IMG/VR virus record: IMGVR_UViG_3300032038_000001
Coordinates: 96,001-160,000 of that record
Strand: one strand, 5' to 3'
Length of the DNA: 64,000 nucleotides
From: a virus
Taxonomy: Duplodnaviria; Caudoviricetes
A model generated the notes under the pieces. It worked only from the letters and a program-made list of their open reading frames with translations, was not told where the DNA came from and made no database searches. Below are positions 7,295 to 43,493 of the stretch, one piece after another (the stretch's first letter is position 1; each line of letters starts with the position of its first letter). A program made the position numbers and the translations under genes.

Positions 7295-7331
7295 AGATGA
7301 AAGAATATAGGTATGCGCCTATATTCTTTTT

Positions 7332-7552
7332 TTATTATAAAACCGTAAACTTAATAATTTCATATATATAATATTTTAGTGTAATAAGATAAATGATATC
7401 TTAATCTAACTTCATAGCGAAGGCGTCAGATTAAGATATTATATAGATTATTACATAAACAGCAGTAAGTGGTTTCTCGGAACTTTTATACGTTCCCTCT
7501 GTTTACCACAGTCAATAAAACAGAGTATAAGTACAATAAGGAGGTACTTATT
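7332..7552 (+). repeat. conserved structured leader element, copy 1
   Basis: differs from the reverse complement of 37565-37783 by one substitution and a 2-nt loop indel; homologous to 35613-35819 and 36341-36553. Confidence 0.95.
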
Positions 7553-7885
7553 ATGACATTAACAGAAAAAATGGAATTAGCAGAGTTGATTCGTGGTATC
7601 GTTCGTGAAGAGCTGCAGAGAGTGCTTGCGGAAAATAATAAAACTGTAGACAGCGGCACTACTACAACTACCATCGGCAGCACTGAAAATGCAAAGGCTT
7701 ATTTGAAGAAAATAAGCCCGATGATGAGTGAGTATGTGAGCCGATATACCCTCTATGATATCAGCAAAGAAATGAAGTCAGTACTTACAGCTGACGAAAT
7801 AAAGTACGTCATTATCCACCTGGACTCAAATAACTTGTGTAGCAAGAAAAACAGCAGAGACCTAAGTGAGATGCTGTTTAAGTAA
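7553..7885 (+). CDS. orphan cargo protein (110 aa, MTLTEKMELAEL...)
   Basis: AAGGAGG before ATG 7553; the ORF-track extension to 7469 lies inside the repeat; terminator at 7889-7931. Confidence 0.8.
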   Translation: MTLTEKMELAELIRGIVREELQRVLAENNKTVDSGTTTTTIGSTENAKAYLKKISPMMSEYVSRYTLYDISKEMKSVLTADEIKYVIIHLDSNNLCSKKNSRDLSEMLFK

Positions 7886-7930
7886 CAATAAGTGCAGTGT
7901 GAACAATTGTTCACACTGCACTTTATTTTT

Positions 7931-8146: not shown

Positions 8147-10996
8147 TTATAATAACATTGAGTCTACATCAATTTGTCTGGATTTTACTAAGTTTTCATG
8201 GAATTTTTTCATTCCTAAACGTTTGGTAGTTTCAGCAGGACGGGAACATAATAAACCTATATTAATTTTACCAAGTTTATAATAGAAGTCACCTGCACAT
8301 TTGTTACACAGGCATTTAGTATTTCCATATCCTACACAGAACATGGGGCTTCTTAATTTAACAGTTTTGCCGATATATTTAGGAAGTACCTCGTTTGTCA
8401 AACAAATAAGTTTTGAACCTTCAATAATATATCTATATGCAAAATCGTCATAACCTTTTTGAGGTATAGTAATAGTTAAATATCCTAAACTTCCACAATC
8501 TGAATCTTTAGGTCCTAATACTTCTGCTTGCATTGCAGAGATAAGTTCTTTTGAAAGATAACCAGATACTGCTGTACCCTTTGCTTTAGGATAAGCTCCT
8601 CCAATAATTTCATTAGAGTGTGCAGGAATATCTTTTTTATCAAGACCATCAAGTAATGCATTAGTTAGAATATTAAATCCACCATACATTTCATTTTTAA
8701 TTGCACCTCTCATAAGGTACATGTTTTTATAGTTATTACCTATTGAACCACGAGCACCAGACACATAAAGATCCATACCAATATCATCTTTAAGAGCTTC
8801 TTTTGTTTTAGCAATAAGTTCTTTTTCAATGAGCTCAGATGCTTTCGGGTCTCCATTAGCGAGTTCATTTTTATACTTTTCTAAGAGCTCCTTTTTCAGT
8901 TTCTTTACTTCGGGTGGAACTTTAAGAATTGTTGGTGTAAATGATGTTGTTATTACTGCATGAAATTGGAGACCTAACCAGTCACGCATATCTGTATATT
9001 TATACATCTGATCAACTGTTATTTTGTCATCTTTTAATCCTGCAGTTATAGTATTTTCTACTTTTCCAAATCCACCATCATCAAGTACGTAATTGACATA
9101 TCCAAGTATATTTCCTAATCCAACTTCTTCAATCATTAATTTATTAAAAATAAATCTACCTAAAGTTGTTTTTGTAGGACTTGATACTAATGGATATTCA
9201 CTTGGAGTTATTGTTAATATATCAGTACATGAATATTTTGATTTACTTGCTTTTATAGGTTTTTTAACTTTTTCTTCAGGTTTCGTAGTTTCTACTGTTT
9301 CAATATTAACAGTATTACCAAACCACTCAACTAATTTAGAAAAAGTTATATCACCGGGTTTTAATGAAGTGAAGTATTCGGCATCTTCATTACTAAGGAC
9401 TCTATCAGAAGATTTTGGCTCTTTAGTCATTGTGTAGAATGTCTGTATAGCCTCATTTTCAACTTTACGTATATTTTTACCAGAAGCATTTATAAAGTAC
9501 GATTTACTATTCATAGCACGTCTACATTCTTCATTAGCTTCCTGAGTAAAAACAATTTTAACAGTCGTTTGGTCACCATCATAGTCGCCATCGAGTCCAG
9601 GTAAATATGAATTCGAGAACTGGACAGAATCAATGAATTTACTAGCCATTTTATCTGCGGGAACATCAAATTCTATACTTGGATACCACGGATATACTTG
9701 GCCATTGTATGAAGCTACAATAGTCTTTGTTGTTGATACTACTCTTATTTTTGCTAAGAATATACCAAACTCATCAAGTAGAGGATAACGTGTTACAAGA
9801 CAGTATTTATCTTTTGTAACATCATACGCAGCCATATATAAAATATCTGTCCATGTCAGATATCTATTAGCTTGTGTTGCTAACTCTACTTGAGTGTTAG
9901 GATCTAATATTTTTCCTTTAAATCTTAAATAACCTTTTTTATTAGTACCTTCTAATGGAACTTCAATCTTATTAAATCTTGACTCAGGGTCTTTGATATA
10001 GAGATCAATCATTTTCTTAAAATATTTTTCGTTAAATGTTGATGACGGATCTTTTAACTTAACTAAGCCAGTATCAGCATTGTTAAAACCATATACAGCA
10101 TTTGCTATTTGACTATTGTCAATAACCTCTCTCTCAAAAAAGTTTTTGACCCAATACATAATAAATGGATACGCCAAGCTACAAACTTGTGATATAGGAA
10201 TTGCTGCATGTCTGAAATCAGTTAACATGTCTTCAGGTCTTTCAGCATGAAACGTGGGTGCTGTTATAACAGTACGTGTACAATAGTCAACGTTTCTTCC
10301 TAATAAGTATTTACGTAGTAATCCATTTTTCTTTTCAAGCTTTGTTTTAAAATAATCATATATTTCAACAAGAGTATTCTGTATATTAAAATTAGTAGCA
10401 CTAAACTGGAAATCAAAGACATCTTTATCTTTAACAAGATTGGTATATCTAATTAATTGCGAATATAATTGATTTATATTTCCAGTTTCACCGCTACCAC
10501 TTTTACTATATGTTACATCTCTATAAAAAGCAGGTATTACTAAGCAATAATGAATAAATATTTCATTTTTTTTACTTTTGGTAATAAGGTCAATTCTTTC
10601 ATTACGCATGCCTTGTTCTATAGAGTATTCCCATTTTATTTTATTCCAGTTATTATAAAGGAAATCTAAACCAGTATCTCCATTATCATCTTTTACAAGT
10701 CTTCCATCCTTATCAATAGAATAATACTCCTCACCGTTTATAATTCTTTCTACATTTCTATACAAACGTTTCAATGCTTTATAAATATGAGGATGAAAAA
10801 AATAACCATGAAGATTGATATATGCAAAAGTTTCTTTTCTGGATTTTGTTGTTATTCCAAAAATTTCATTAGATATTAATCCATTTGGATGAGGTATACC
10901 TCCTCTTTGAAATAAAACACCAGATGTAACTTCTTGTAGATGATTCAATTCAATGAATTCTTCCATATTGAATAAATCAATTTTCAAATTTATCAC
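8147..10996 (-). CDS. multisubunit RNA polymerase beta'-like subunit, probably virion RNAP
   Basis: LLGRNVDYCTRTVI, TRYP, catalytic DGDYDGD, SGARGS, GTAVSGYLSKEL, DSDCGS, LRSPMFC..CNKCAG, trigger-helix-like LGMKKFH; late-type promoter at 11015-11026. Confidence 0.9.
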   Translation of the reverse strand: MINLKIDLFNMEEFIELNHLQEVTSGVLFQRGGIPHPNGLISNEIFGITTKSRKETFAYINLHGYFFHPHIYKALKRLYRNVERIINGEEYYSIDKDGRLVKDDNGDTGLDFLYNNWNKIKWEYSIEQGMRNERIDLITKSKKNEIFIHYCLVIPAFYRDVTYSKSGSGETGNINQLYSQLIRYTNLVKDKDVFDFQFSATNFNIQNTLVEIYDYFKTKLEKKNGLLRKYLLGRNVDYCTRTVITAPTFHAERPEDMLTDFRHAAIPISQVCSLAYPFIMYWVKNFFEREVIDNSQIANAVYGFNNADTGLVKLKDPSSTFNEKYFKKMIDLYIKDPESRFNKIEVPLEGTNKKGYLRFKGKILDPNTQVELATQANRYLTWTDILYMAAYDVTKDKYCLVTRYPLLDEFGIFLAKIRVVSTTKTIVASYNGQVYPWYPSIEFDVPADKMASKFIDSVQFSNSYLPGLDGDYDGDQTTVKIVFTQEANEECRRAMNSKSYFINASGKNIRKVENEAIQTFYTMTKEPKSSDRVLSNEDAEYFTSLKPGDITFSKLVEWFGNTVNIETVETTKPEEKVKKPIKASKSKYSCTDILTITPSEYPLVSSPTKTTLGRFIFNKLMIEEVGLGNILGYVNYVLDDGGFGKVENTITAGLKDDKITVDQMYKYTDMRDWLGLQFHAVITTSFTPTILKVPPEVKKLKKELLEKYKNELANGDPKASELIEKELIAKTKEALKDDIGMDLYVSGARGSIGNNYKNMYLMRGAIKNEMYGGFNILTNALLDGLDKKDIPAHSNEIIGGAYPKAKGTAVSGYLSKELISAMQAEVLGPKDSDCGSLGYLTITIPQKGYDDFAYRYIIEGSKLICLTNEVLPKYIGKTVKLRSPMFCVGYGNTKCLCNKCAGDFYYKLGKINIGLLCSRPAETTKRLGMKKFHENLVKSRQIDVDSMLL

Positions 10997-34676: not shown

Positions 34677-35612
34677 TTATTGAGGCTGCCTTTTTGCCAT
34701 GCAAGCCTCAATGTACTCACATGTTGTATTCACATTATTTTCCAAGTGAGCACATACTGAAGGCCACTGCCACTCTCTTATAACACCATCTTCGCAACAT
34801 TTGAACATTACATCGTTACGTATCATTTTATTATTTATATGTCCATCAACGATATATTTATTCTCTATGTTAGTATTAAATATATCATCAATTACTGAAT
34901 CAATCGTGTCAATGACATTCTCATAATGCTCTCTATTGATTTTCATTATCTTACTACGAATGTAGCGTTCTTCGTATCCCGTAACTCCGAAATCATCCTG
35001 TGAGAACTTCAGATATTTATCTACAAGTTCGTTCTCTATTCTTTCCCAGTTTATCTTCTTCGTCGTCATCATTATTTGATTATATAGCAGGCCTATACAA
35101 TCATCAATGCGTGCCGCCCACACCTCGCGGGATTTATACGGGCACTCATTTATGGGCGGATAGATGAGAACTGCTTCCTCAGATGAGAGTTCGTCTGCTT
35201 CTGCTTCTGTTTCGTCAACTGTTTCCTCAACTGTTTCTGTTTCGTCAACTGCTTCCTCAACTGCTTCCTGTTCTTCCTCAGATGAGAGTTCAGCGGCTTC
35301 TGCTTCGTCGACGTCGTTTTCCACCATTATCTCATCATCGTCTGCTTCGATTTCAGCATCAAGAGCATCGTCAGCATCATCCGAGAGTTCAGCTGCTTCT
35401 GCTTTGTCACCCGAGTCCTGCTCTTCCTCAGCTGCTTCTGCTTCCGCTTCGTCGACGTCGTTTTCCACCATTATCTCATCATCGTCTCCACCGAACTCAG
35501 CAGCATCAAAGGCCTGCTTAGCAAGTTTCCGCTGTCTCAGGATTGCAAAAATGCTTATTCCTGAAAGTCCTACTACACCAGCACCGATAGCGATTTTAGT
35601 TGTCTTTTTCAT
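34677..35612 (-). CDS. membrane-anchored, highly acidic repeat protein (cargo of leader copy 2)
   Basis: N-terminal TM helix; DDDEIMVENDVDEAEA x2, AELSSEE, VDETE repeats. Confidence 0.85.
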   Translation of the reverse strand: MKKTTKIAIGAGVVGLSGISIFAILRQRKLAKQAFDAAEFGGDDDEIMVENDVDEAEAEAAEEEQDSGDKAEAAELSDDADDALDAEIEADDDEIMVENDVDEAEAAELSSEEEQEAVEEAVDETETVEETVDETEAEADELSSEEAVLIYPPINECPYKSREVWAARIDDCIGLLYNQIMMTTKKINWERIENELVDKYLKFSQDDFGVTGYEERYIRSKIMKINREHYENVIDTIDSVIDDIFNTNIENKYIVDGHINNKMIRNDVMFKCCEDGVIREWQWPSVCAHLENNVNTTCEYIEACMAKRQPQ

Positions 35613-35819
35613 AAGATTACCTCCTTGTAATCATACTCTGTTTTATTGACTGTGGTAAACAGAGGGAACATACAAAGTTCTGAGAAACCACTTAAATGTT
35701 TTTATGTAATAATCTATATATAACTTAACCTGATACCTTCACTATGAAGTTAGGGTAAGTTATTATATATCTTATTACACGGAGATAGTATATATATGAA
35801 ATTATTAAGTTTACGGTTA
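35613..35819 (-). repeat. conserved structured leader element, copy 2
   Basis: homologous to 7332-7552 with compensatory stem changes. Confidence 0.92.
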
Positions 35820-36340: not shown

Positions 36341-36553
36341 ATGATTACCTCCTAGTAATCTTACTCTGTTTTATTGACTGTGGTAAACAGAGGGAACATA
36401 CAAAGTTCCGAGAAACCACTTAACTGTTTTTATGTAATAATCTATATAACATCTTAACTCGATACCTTCGTTATGAAGTTGAGGTAAGTTATTATATATC
36501 TTATTACACATAAATTATATATATATGAAAATATTCAGTTTACTGTTTTATAA
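36341..36553 (-). repeat. conserved structured leader element, copy 3
   Basis: homologous to 7332-7552 with compensatory stem changes. Confidence 0.92.
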
Positions 36554-37423: not shown

Positions 37424-37564
37424 TTAGATTAAAGCATTAACAATTGCTACAACTATTCCAAGAATGAGTATGACTGTCAACGCGACACCGATATCGTGAT
37501 CACGCTTCAATCTCTTGTAACCCTTGAATTTTCTTTCGCCGTTTTCTTTTCTGTTATTTTTCAT
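37424..37564 (-). CDS. 46-aa single-TM orphan protein (cargo of leader copy 4)
   Basis: MKNNRKENGERKFKGYKRLKRDHDIGVALTVILILGIVVAIVNALI after AAGGAGG. Confidence 0.75.
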   Translation of the reverse strand: MKNNRKENGERKFKGYKRLKRDHDIGVALTVILILGIVVAIVNALI

Positions 37565-37783
37565 AATAAGTACCTCCTTATTGTACTTATACTCTGTTTT
37601 ATTGACTGTGGTAAACAGAGGGAACATAAAAGTTCCGAGAAACCACTTACTGCTGTTTATGTAATAATCTATATAATATCTTAATCTGACGCCTTCGCTA
37701 TGAAGTTAGATTAAGATATCATTTATCTTATTACACTGAAATATTATATATATGAAATTATTAAGTTTACGGTTTTATAATAA
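37565..37783 (-). repeat. conserved structured leader element, copy 4
   Basis: near-identical inverted copy of 7332-7552. Confidence 0.95.
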
Positions 37784-42951: not shown

Positions 42952-43332
42952 TCAACCCTCCTTTCCACCTATGTCTTCTTTTCGTATTTCGCCGCTTTTT
43001 ATAGCAGCTTTTATTTCGGCTGTTACATCACGCCCGTTACGGTTAAAATATCGGGTATGGAACCCGATCTTTTCTCTGTAATATTCGTGCTCGTTCTTTT
43101 CGAACTGAGCACGTCTATCCAACTCGTCAGCCATGCCATACAGCACGGCTGCTGAGAATCCAGCAGCTGCGACAAGAGCCACCGTTGAGACTGTCACCTT
43201 TGTAACGGTCCAGGCTACACTAGCAGCCTTCTTAAACGTAGACTGCTTCTGCTTCTGCTCGTTTGCAACGATCTTAGCGTCTACTACGGGGTTGGTTTTC
43301 TTGTTCGTATCTTTTTTGTTATTCTTTGCCAT
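42952..43332 (-). CDS. single-TM orphan protein downstream of the degenerate leader
   Basis: RBS aaggagg before MAKNNKK; TM segment TVALVAAAGFSAAVLYG. Confidence 0.75.
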   Translation of the reverse strand: MAKNNKKDTNKKTNPVVDAKIVANEQKQKQSTFKKAASVAWTVTKVTVSTVALVAAAGFSAAVLYGMADELDRRAQFEKNEHEYYREKIGFHTRYFNRNGRDVTAEIKAAIKSGEIRKEDIGGKEG

Positions 43333-43430
43333 TTTATATTCCTCCTTTAGATTTTTAATGGCTATTAGGAACATACATGTTTTGCAGTACTATGTAATAT
43401 TCCTTTACTTACACTGAAATATTATATAAT
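43333..43430 (-). promoter_or_regulatory. degenerate fifth copy of the leader element
   Basis: tatataatatttcagtgtaa...ttacat...aacatgtatgttcc...aaggagg. Confidence 0.55.
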
Positions 43431-43493
43431 TATAATATTTATATATGCGCTTTTCTATATACATTCAAATAACACCATCTGAAAAAGGGAGGA

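What the first reader, a model, noticed from the sequence alone, without database searches (positions are those of the whole stretch)
7379..7456. Leader domain 1: ~77-nt hairpin with compensatory changes across copies
The outer stem tgtaataa/ttattaca is invariant. The inner stem covaries: atatctta/taagatat (copies 1, 4) vs ataactta/taagttat (copy 2), and tct/aga (1, 4) vs cct/agg (2) vs ctc/gag (3). The apex cttc...gaag is conserved. Pairing is therefore under selection rather than sequence. It sits just after the promoter-like tract, so it would be the 5' end of the transcript; about 30 bp of imperfect duplex is the size of an RNase III substrate. Wobble/mismatch polarity is mixed between strands, so a DNA cruciform or ssDNA hairpin role (recombination site) is not excluded.
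Basis: partly seen in the sequence, partly recalled or inferred. Interest (0 to 1): 0.7.

Follow-up and report, generated by a model that had tools for sequence, protein, structure and literature searches.

The report
5'-end hairpin of jumbo-phage messages
A giant rumen phage and its relatives begin a set of early messenger RNAs with a long hairpin whose pairing, not its sequence, is conserved and which starts at the predicted first transcribed base; it most likely shields the RNA's 5' end from decay, which is untested.

Summary
Window 7379-7456 folds into a roughly 29-bp imperfect hairpin (-27.5 kcal/mol, z -6.9). It is one of four copies in the window and nine in the 250-kb jumbo-phage genome.

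On 23 distinct homologues from this phage, an IMG/VR relative and rumen metagenome contigs:
- 90% of cells pair, against 34-48% when partners are slid.
- 13 of 28 pairs change on both sides, against 2-5 slid, and 0 of 500 shuffles reach this.

The new point is position. The upstream tract fits the AR9-type early virion-RNA-polymerase promoter (TATAnnAT-N6-G+1). In 27 of 28 leaders with such a promoter the helix starts at that predicted +1 G. This also holds in a 77%-related phage whose hairpin sequence is unrelated, and in homologues with only about 13 bp.

My best reading (0.5) is a flush 5'-terminal stem-loop that protects early mRNAs from 5'-end-dependent decay. An RNase III site, a protein-binding tag (the 20-nt cap is almost invariant in the main sequence class) and a DNA cruciform remain possible but are less supported. 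No Rfam family matches.

This scan had already described the cassette and its pseudoknot domain on this same genome; domain 1 had been noted but not followed up. The start site and the function are inferred, not measured.

The parts
7299..7330 (+). Intrinsic terminator of the upstream gene; left border of the cassette
   Evidence: 14-bp stem followed by a T run. Similarity between copies begins just downstream of it.
7343..7380 (+). Promoter: upstream CCGTAAAC box (7343-7350), AT-rich tract, TATAATAT (7367-7374), then a 6-nt spacer (7375-7380)
   Evidence: Conserved in all nine genomic copies and in relatives. It fits the AR9 early virion-RNAP consensus AAATATATATTAT-N6-G+1 (PMC5312081). About 20 other sites of the genome carry TATATATTAT-N6-G without the leader. 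It was not called as a sigma-70 promoter.
7381..7454 (+). Domain 1 hairpin proper, from predicted +1 G (7381) to its partner C (7454).
   Evidence: fold, -26.2 kcal/mol from +1; model R2, 91.1 bits; covariation.
7408..7427 (+). 20-nt cap AACTTCATAGCGAAGGCGTC: a 2-nt/5-nt asymmetric internal loop around the CTTC/GAAG stem (7410-7413 / 7419-7422), with loop ATAGC. Nearly invariant in the main sequence class.
   Evidence: helix 3: three of four pairs never vary. The cap is absent or replaced in short homologues and in the G002 phage.
7455..7466 (+). A-rich single-stranded linker. Together with the last stem bases it reads UUACAUAAAC.
   Evidence: TACAT lies at this position in 31 of 35 leaders.
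7467..7527 (+). Domain 2 (pseudoknot region) of the same leader. It is not part of the finding but belongs to the same transcript.
   Evidence: Model R1 scores 91.4 bits. Compensatory changes are seen in divergent copies.
7529..7885 (+). Hairpin presenting the Shine-Dalgarno sequence, ATG at 7553, and a 110-aa orphan gene
   Evidence: No Pfam or PHROG family matches.
7890..7923 (+). Intrinsic terminator closing the monocistronic cassette
   Evidence: 15-bp stem with 7 G-C pairs followed by a T run.
35706..35778 (-). Domain 1 copy (ATAACTTA/TAAGTTAT, CCT/AGG), ahead of a 311-aa acidic membrane-anchored protein
   Evidence: (101.6 bits).
36434..36507 (-). Domain 1 copy (CTC/GAG), ahead of a 111-aa orphan gene
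   Evidence: (90.8 bits).
37661..37734 (-). Domain 1 copy identical to 7381-7454, ahead of a 46-aa membrane peptide
   Evidence: (91.1 bits).

Best explanation
Domain 1 is an RNA element: a stem-loop that forms the extreme 5' end of the early mRNAs made from a repeated cassette of promoter, leader, gene and terminator. Transcription by the phage's own multisubunit RNA polymerase, or any polymerase using the TATAnnAT box, is predicted to start at the G that is the first base pair of the helix. The 5'-triphosphate nucleotide would then be buried with no single-stranded overhang. Enzymes that start mRNA decay from a free 5' end need unpaired 5' nucleotides and so could not engage. These are RppH-type pyrophosphohydrolases, the RNase J 5' exonuclease, and the 5'-end sensing of RNase E or Y. 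The short early messages would therefore last longer and give more protein. The long, A+U-rich, imperfect stem supplies stability in a 30% G+C genome. The nearly invariant cap may add a protein contact.

Shown: the hairpin, its covariation, its fixed register to the promoter motif, and its modularity.

Inferred: the start site, that the RNA rather than the DNA is the active form, and the stabilising effect.
For: 1. The structure is real and selected: z -5 to -7, and 13 of 28 pairs change on both sides against 2-5 slid, with 0 of 500 shuffles reaching this.

2. The promoter matches the AR9 early consensus, whose mapped start lies 6 nt after the box (PMC5312081). The phage carries a diverged beta'-like subunit.

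3. In 27 of 28 leaders with such a promoter, the MFE fold pairs predicted nucleotide +1.

4. The same register holds for hairpins of unrelated sequence in a phage with 77% beta' identity: GAATATGAATAG.../...CTATTAGTATTC, GTATAATGAATA..TATTCATTATAC and GTATGTAATAAG...TTATACATAC.

5. What is kept across homologues is the flush 5' helix, not its length (about 13 to 29 bp) or its cap.

6. Domain 1 works as a separate module. One relative has promoter, domain 1 and Shine-Dalgarno sequence with no domain 2 (L041:8194-8263).

7. All nine genomic copies lie on the sense strand of a downstream gene, in monocistronic units with their own terminators.

8. G.U outnumbers A.C by 12 to 4 on the sense strand.

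9. Established knowledge: B. subtilis RppH needs at least two unpaired 5' nucleotides, and 5'-terminal stem-loops stabilise ompA, papA and aprE mRNAs (review PMC3997798 and its references 92-95 and 109).
Against: - The transcription start is predicted by analogy, not mapped. For the 7381 copy an alternative register puts it 2 nt upstream; the end would still be paired.
- A simple stabiliser does not explain why the 20-nt cap is nearly invariant in the main sequence class while the stem below it drifts.
- Sense and antisense folds are about equally stable, so strand polarity is weak evidence.
- Many sequences share ancestry, so 27 of 28 is not 27 independent events. I count about five unrelated stem sequences.
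- The host is unknown, so which nucleases matter is unknown.
- Other early promoters of the phage mostly have short unstructured leaders. The enrichment of paired 5' ends among them is modest (43% against 19-21%, Fisher p 0.0075) and absent with a looser motif in the relative (30% against 21%).
Confidence: 0.5

Rival explanations
1. RNase III processing site. The roughly 29-bp imperfect duplex is cut by the host's double-strand-specific RNase. This removes the 5' part of the leader and sets the stability or translation of the message, as at the T7 and SP82 early processing sites.
For: The window copies stack about 29 bp with internal loops and a conserved C.U mismatch, a size and shape that RNase III accepts. 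Repeated, near-identical processing hairpins in phage early RNA have precedent (own knowledge: T7 R1.1-type sites and the SP82 sites of B. subtilis phage).
Against: - Homologous leaders keep only 13-22 bp.
- The element is at the 5' end of a monocistronic unit, so there is no upstream cistron to separate.
- Cleavage would leave a monophosphorylated, partly single-stranded 5' end, the opposite of protection.
- The phage has no RNase III or dsRBD gene.
- Nothing in the sequence data distinguishes a cleavage site.
Confidence: 0.15
2. Protein- or RNA-recognition tag. The invariant cap presented on a variable stem is bound by a phage or host factor. That factor marks these early messages for a common fate, such as timed shut-off, selective translation or localisation.
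For: AACUUCAUAGCGAAGG(Y)(R)UC is almost unchanged in 22 of 25 distinct sequences, while 12 of 17 pairs of the stem beneath it covary. This is the usual signature of a sequence-specific contact. The foot and linker read UACAU in 31 of 35 leaders, which is the cleavage motif of Firmicute MazF/EndoA (PMC3997798).
Against: - Short homologues and the G002 phage lack the cap entirely yet keep the 5' hairpin, so the cap is not essential to the family.
- No partner is identified.
- UAC of the motif is explained by pairing with the conserved GUA start, and the rest by an A-rich linker.
- TACAT is not depleted genome-wide (ratio 0.98).
- Recent common descent of the copies could also keep the cap.
Confidence: 0.17
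3. DNA-level element. The inverted repeat extrudes as a cruciform or single-strand hairpin that serves recombination between cassettes or polymerase loading.
For: - Both DNA strands can fold (-10 to -13 kcal/mol, z -3.5 to -5.2).
- The repeat is A+T-rich.
- Two leaders 30 kb apart are 99% identical in front of unrelated genes, so the cassettes do exchange.
- The palindrome can be extended by two bases upstream of predicted +1 in most copies.
Against: - The arms carry mismatches, bulges and a 2/5-nt asymmetric loop, which hinder extrusion.
- Homologous recombination between 215-bp repeats needs no hairpin.
- About 20 other promoters of the same type lack it, so it is not needed for promoter use.
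- The helix start is fixed to predicted +1 even in unrelated sequences, which a DNA role does not require.
- Every copy has the same orientation relative to its gene.
Confidence: 0.08

Closest known systems
5'-terminal stem-loop mRNA stabilisers (E. coli ompA and papA leaders; B. subtilis aprE leader)
   Same: A hairpin at the very 5' end with no or almost no unpaired nucleotides, whose structure rather than sequence matters. It lies upstream of a strong ribosome-binding site in a long leader (review PMC3997798 and its references 92-95 and 109).
   Different: - Much longer (about 74 nt and 29 bp, against 10-20 bp).
- Carries a nearly invariant 20-nt cap.
- Repeated nine times in one phage genome as a module of a portable cassette.
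- Predicted to be made by a phage multisubunit RNA polymerase.
- The stabilising effect has not been measured.
AR9 early promoters and the unnamed 5'-UTR motif of AR9 early transcripts (PMC5312081)
   Same: A jumbo phage with its own multisubunit RNA polymerases, an A+T-rich early box followed by N6 and a G start, and unusually long 5' UTRs with a recurrent motif of unknown function.
   Different: The AR9 motif's sequence and structure were not available to me (it is in a supplementary figure), so no direct comparison was made. The leader gave no blastn match in 50,697 phage records. An extra CCGTAAAC box at about -35 is present here.
PeSL (promoter-early stem-loop) cassettes of T4-type phages RB49 and phi1 (PMC2839356)
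   Same: Repeated small regulatory cassettes with a strong early promoter and a stem-loop, sitting in front of orphan genes in plastic regions and mediating modular shuffling.
   Different: PeSL stem-loops are G/C-tract terminators or attenuators placed within, upstream of, or just before the start site of a sigma-70 promoter. Here the hairpin is A+U-rich, lies downstream of +1 inside the transcript, has no U tract, and a separate terminator precedes the promoter.
RNase III sites of phage early RNAs (T7 R1.1-R5; SP82)
   Same: Repeated imperfect hairpins of 20-30 bp with internal loops in early transcripts (own knowledge).
   Different: Those sites lie between cistrons of polycistronic RNA and leave a protective 3' hairpin on the upstream product. 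This one is 5'-terminal on a monocistronic RNA and shrinks to about 13 bp in homologues.

Membership tests
5'-terminal stem-loop mRNA stabiliser | Helix begins within 0 to about 2 nt of the transcript's 5' end | tested here: met
   Predicted +1 is paired in 27 of 28 leaders with a recognisable promoter, and in unrelated-sequence hairpins of phage G002. The start site is predicted from the AR9 consensus, not mapped.
5'-terminal stem-loop mRNA stabiliser | Structure, not sequence, is what is conserved | tested here: met
   13 of 28 pairs change on both sides; 90% of cells pair against 34-48% slid; 0 of 500 shuffles reach this. About five unrelated stem sequences share the same register.
5'-terminal stem-loop mRNA stabiliser | Lengthens mRNA half-life; the effect is lost when a single-stranded 5' extension is added | not testable with these tools
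   Needs reporter decay assays in the host, which is unknown, or in a Firmicute surrogate.
RNase III processing site | About two helical turns (20 bp or more) of coaxial duplex | tested here: inconclusive
   Met in the window copies (about 29 bp). Not met in homologues of 36-45 nt with about 13-16 bp.
RNase III processing site | Specific cleavage by RNase III | not testable with these tools
   No phage RNase III or dsRBD gene. Host enzyme unknown.
PeSL cassette (T4-type phages) | Stem-loop acts as a terminator or attenuator and lies in or upstream of the promoter, or just before the start site | tested here: not met
   The hairpin starts at predicted +1 and runs to +74, is 26% G+C, and has no T run after it. 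A separate terminator lies upstream at 7299-7330. PeSL definition taken.
PeSL cassette (T4-type phages) | Repeated before orphan genes, with signs of modular exchange | tested here: met
   Nine copies before unrelated small genes without families. The leaders at 7340 and 37775 are 99% identical.
Any Rfam 15 family | Score at or above the family's gathering threshold | tested here: not met
   No match in the window at gathering thresholds. Over domain 1 only chance-level plant microRNA-precursor hits appear: 18.8 bits against a threshold of 90.8.
Intrinsic terminator / attenuator | G+C-rich stem followed by a U tract | tested here: not met
   Not called by the terminator scan, although both flanking terminators were. 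The hairpin is followed by AUAAACAGCAG.
N4-type hairpin promoter | Short DNA hairpin upstream of the start site, required for polymerase recognition | tested here: not met
   The hairpin is downstream of predicted +1. About 20 promoters of the same box lack it. The definition is from own knowledge.

The most novel reading that the evidence does not exclude
The hairpin is a shared 'address tag' for a regulon of early messages. In this reading the flush 5' helix hides the end, and the invariant cap is read by a phage factor. The invariant UACAU at the foot is a built-in cut site for a MazF-type endoribonuclease, which detaches the protective hairpin at a set time and so programmes the shut-off of all tagged early genes together.
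Probability: 0.12. Interest if true: 0.75.

Novelty: new variant of a known kind. Interest (0 to 1): 0.45.

Why it matters
Jumbo phages with their own RNA polymerases are known to have long 5' UTRs with recurrent motifs whose roles are unexplained (PMC5312081). This finding gives one such motif:
- a defined fold;
- statistical support for that fold;
- a precise register to the predicted start site;
- a testable role, namely 5'-end sequestration as a way for a phage to make short early messages last in a host with aggressive 5'-end-dependent decay.

Because the module is portable (promoter, 5' hairpin, optional pseudoknot, ribosome-binding hairpin, terminator), it could also serve as a compact expression and stability part for low-G+C bacteria if the effect is confirmed. 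The element is not in Rfam and could be added as a family.

Tried and rejected
- **Rfam.** No hit at gathering thresholds. E-value scans gave only chance microRNA-precursor and sRNA matches over domain 1.
- **blastn against 50,697 phage records.** The whole leader gave no match.
- **Exact-pattern scans of IMG/VR.** Three of four patterns found nothing. The fourth gave one true relative (L015) and one chance hit in a coding region (L014).
- **MAFFT alignment of all hairpins.** It mis-registered the 5' arms of shorter copies, so I used a covariance-model alignment instead.
- **Strand polarity from folding energy.** Sense was more stable than antisense in only 17 of 29, and the two DNA strands fold equally well. 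Not decisive.
- **Transcript ends in short Logan contigs.** The contigs simply break inside the repeated leader, so they say nothing about the start site.
- **Idea that all early transcripts of these phages start with a flush hairpin.** Only modest enrichment in this genome and none with a looser motif in phage G002. Left as a lead.
- **Complementarity between domain-1 loops and domain-2 loops, and between the 5' arm and the Shine-Dalgarno region.** Inspected by eye. I saw no consistent pairing.
- **K-turn or T-loop reading of the cap.** Rejected on sequence: the tandem G.A positions are UC, and the loop is 5 nt.
- **Phage-encoded RNase III or dsRBD.** None found.
- **More distant relatives.** Phages with 40-43% beta' identity (G003, G004) have no domain-2 match.

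Full report
**What is there.** The window is bases 96,001-160,000 of a 250,395-bp IMG/VR virus record with about 30% G+C. It encodes a highly diverged beta'-like RNA-polymerase subunit at 8147-10996, with E 4.8e-07 to bacterial beta' chains. It also encodes a DnaB-like helicase and a polyphosphate kinase and a GH25 endolysin.

The stretch 7379-7456 folds into a long imperfect hairpin. From foot to tip it has:
- a 7-9-bp foot;
- a 2x2 internal loop;
- about 17 bp of middle stem;
- an asymmetric 2/5-nt internal loop;
- a 4-bp apical stem CUUC/GAAG closing the loop AUAGC.

The MFE is -27.5 kcal/mol against -9.5 +/- 2.6 for dinucleotide shuffles (z -6.9). The three other window copies give z -5.0 to -6.9.

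**The hairpin is one domain of a repeated cassette.** A 215-bp unit occurs nine times in the genome. The copies lie at genome positions 12.4, 13.3, 14.3, 89.9, 91.3, 103.4 (this copy), 131.6, 132.3 and 133.6 kb. Independent covariance models of domain 2 (R1) and of domain 1 (R2) both find these nine sites and no others.

Each cassette consists of:
- an upstream terminator;
- a promoter;
- domain 1;
- an A-rich linker;
- a pseudoknot-forming domain 2;
- a hairpin presenting the Shine-Dalgarno sequence;
- a different small gene;
- its own strong terminator.

The downstream genes have no Pfam or PHROG family. Earlier agents of this scan had already described the cassette and domain 2 on this same genome. 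Domain 1 had been noted but not followed up.

**Where the RNA should start.** The conserved tract before the hairpin ends in TATA(N2)AT, six variable bases, and an invariant G. In phage AR9, a jumbo phage with two multisubunit polymerases, 41 mapped early starts follow AAATATATATTAT-(6N)-G+1. The same 6-nt spacing is reported for phiKZ and phiR1-37 (PMC5312081). This genome has about 20 further TATATATTAT-N6-G sites in front of genes that lack the leader.

By this rule +1 is G7381, which is the first base pair of the helix (G7381:C7454). That base can still pair (G.U, then U-A). A sigma-70-type reading of the same box (TAATAT as -10) predicts the same start, although the simple sigma-70 scan does not call the site because the -35 is poor. 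The start site is therefore an inference. It is robust to which polymerase is assumed.

**Relatives.** I found the leader in:
- an IMG/VR contig with a 99% identical beta' (L015);
- a 203-kb phage with 77% beta' identity (G002);
- five rumen-type metagenome contigs (L016-L020);
- eleven ENA contigs, reached through homologues of one leader-linked protein.

Two phages with 40-43% beta' identity have no match. In all I obtained 35 non-redundant leaders.

**Covariation.** I then took the 32 matches to model R2 with E <= 1e-7, all on the sense strand, which gave 23 distinct sequences. On these:

| Measure | Observed | Partners slid 1-3 columns | Column shuffles |
|---|---|---|---|
| Cells forming a standard pair | 90.1% | 34-48% | 83.3 +/- 0.7% |
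| Pairs with a change on both sides | 13 of 28 | 2-5 | 6.4 +/- 1.4 |
| Covariation score | 0.191 | 0.019-0.067 | 0.080 |

None of 500 shuffles reached the observed value on any measure.

The signal lies in the middle stem, where 12 of 17 pairs covary. The foot varies at one pair (A-U, C-G or U-A). The apical stem never varies. My own count on 25 sequences, including more divergent ones, gave 19 of 28 pairs with double changes against 3-7 slid.

The alignment was fitted to the model's structure, which inflates pairing, and the sequences are related. The slid-partner control and the number of distinct pair types are the more trustworthy parts. A C.U mismatch next to the CCU/AGG helix is itself conserved in about 18-20 of the sequences (18/25; the 20/23 unpaired cells at that pair).

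**The helix is anchored to the 5' end.** I folded each leader from its predicted +1 to the start of domain 2. Nucleotide +1 is paired at the base of the hairpin in 27 of 28 leaders with a recognisable promoter. This is not only shared ancestry. Phage G002 has leaders whose domain 1 is unrelated in sequence:
- GAATATGAATAGTTAT...ATAACTATTAGTATTC, with its own compensatory ACAC/GUGU against AACC/GGUU in the tip;
- GTATAATGAATA-A-TATTCATTATAC;
- GTATGTAATAAG...TTATACATAC.

Each of these starts exactly seven bases after the TATAnnAT box.

Two metagenomic leaders keep the GTAAT/ATTAC foot but have only 36- and 45-nt hairpins without the cap. One relative has promoter, domain 1 and Shine-Dalgarno sequence with no domain 2 at all (L041:8194-8263).

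So domain 1 is a separable module. Its conserved properties are (i) being a helix and (ii) starting at +1. Its length (about 13-29 bp) and its cap are optional.

**RNA or DNA.** On the sense strand, G.U pairs outnumber A.C mismatches 12 to 4. That is the direction expected for a sense-strand RNA, but the numbers are small and not independent. Folding energies of sense and antisense RNA do not differ consistently (sense better in 17 of 29). Both DNA strands fold to -10 to -13 kcal/mol.

Three things favour RNA:
- the fixed register to the start site in unrelated sequences;
- the constant orientation relative to the downstream gene;
- the fact that promoters of the same type work, presumably, without any hairpin elsewhere in the genome.

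Recombination between cassettes clearly happens: the 7340 and 37775 leaders are 99% identical in front of unrelated genes. But 215 bp of homology suffices for that.

**Most likely mechanism.** A helix that leaves no unpaired 5' nucleotide is the classic protection against 5'-end-dependent decay. B. subtilis RppH needs at least two unpaired 5' nucleotides. 5'-terminal stem-loops stabilise ompA, papA and aprE mRNAs (review PMC3997798 and its references). The strong AAGGAGG ribosome-binding sites and the GH25 endolysin are compatible with a low-G+C Gram-positive host, but the host is not established. I give this reading 0.5.

It explains the register, the covariation, the tolerance of length changes and the modularity. 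It does not explain the near-invariant 20-nt cap of the main class. The cap may be a contact site for a protein (rival, 0.17) or simply young.

RNase III processing (0.15) fits the size of the window copies. It does not fit the short homologues or the 5'-terminal position. The phage has no RNase III or dsRBD gene. A DNA cruciform or recombination role gets 0.08.

**Comparison with known systems.**
- No Rfam family matches domain 1.
- PeSL cassettes of RB49 and phi1 share the portable early-promoter-plus-stem-loop idea and the link to orphan genes. Their stem-loops, however, are G/C-tract terminators placed in or before the promoter (PMC2839356). That defining feature is not met here.
- The nearest relatives in kind are 5'-terminal stabiliser stem-loops, and the unnamed 5'-UTR motif reported for AR9 early transcripts, which I could not inspect.

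I class the element as a new variant of a known kind: a long, covarying, capped 5'-terminal hairpin used as a repeated module by a family of uncultured rumen jumbo phages.

Noticed in passing
window 7450-7458 and the same place in other leaders: The 3' foot and linker read UUACAUAA. TACAT lies there in 31 of 35 leaders, including two G002 leaders whose hairpins differ otherwise. UAC is explained by pairing with the GUA start, and TACAT is not depleted genome-wide (ratio 0.98).
   Followed up: partly
L041:8140-8300: A related phage has the promoter and a full domain 1 hairpin followed after about 12 nt by GGAGG and ATG, with no domain 2 pseudoknot. This shows that domain 1 is used on its own.
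   Followed up: partly
window 7462-7550: Domain 2 plus the Shine-Dalgarno hairpin gives a weak match to Rfam cow-rumen-4 RNA (RF02948): 19.8 bits against a gathering score of 48.5, E 0.3-0.65. The layout is similar (a GGGG/CCCC-type stem, then a hairpin with AUAAGGAGG in its loop). It is not a member by the curated threshold, and may be a distant relative or chance.
   Followed up: partly
genome 74712, 15275, 91726, 146608, 148712, 199274 (outside or near the window; window 50608 and 52712 for two of them): Several early-type promoters without the leader also give transcripts whose predicted +1 is paired in a short flush hairpin (for example GTATAAAC...GTTTATAT and GTGAT...ATCAC). In 43% of 23 sites P(paired) exceeds 0.75, against 19-21% of control G positions (Fisher p 0.0075). 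A looser motif in phage G002 gave 30% against 21%.
   Followed up: partly
window 43330-43460 (-), genome about 139412: A partial copy of the leader promoter (repeat family D2) is followed by GTAAGTAAAGGAATATTAC. In this script's MFE over the first 90 nt, +1 is unpaired (P(paired) 0.0). A different, pseudoknot-free leader runs to AAGGAGG and an ATG.
   Followed up: no
genome 164276-164600 (4.3 kb beyond the window): The same promoter type (TCGTAAA...TATATTAT-N6-G) and the same first bases GTAATAAG head a non-coding RNA with a direct repeat of a mini-ORF and its own terminator. The GTAATAAG start is thus shared by transcripts that lack the hairpin's 3' arm.
   Followed up: no
window 34677-35612 (-); genome 12.4 and 13.3 kb; L040-L050: Three leader-driven genes are paralogues encoding an N-terminal membrane anchor, an acidic low-complexity region and a conserved C-terminal domain. 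20 clusters of homologues exist in public metagenomes, none with a Pfam domain.
   Followed up: partly
window 7340-7556 and 37561-37775: The two leaders are 99% identical over 215 bp although 30 kb apart and in front of unrelated genes. Identity stops at the start codon, which indicates recent duplication or gene conversion of the cassette.
   Followed up: partly
L047:13757-17969 and L041:13761-16235: In one relative the gyrase B gene is split into three ORFs, with an HNH_3 endonuclease ORF between two of the pieces. It is a single 824-aa ORF in another relative. This looks like a homing-endonuclease or intron insertion. Tubulin (PF00091) is also present in L041.
   Followed up: no
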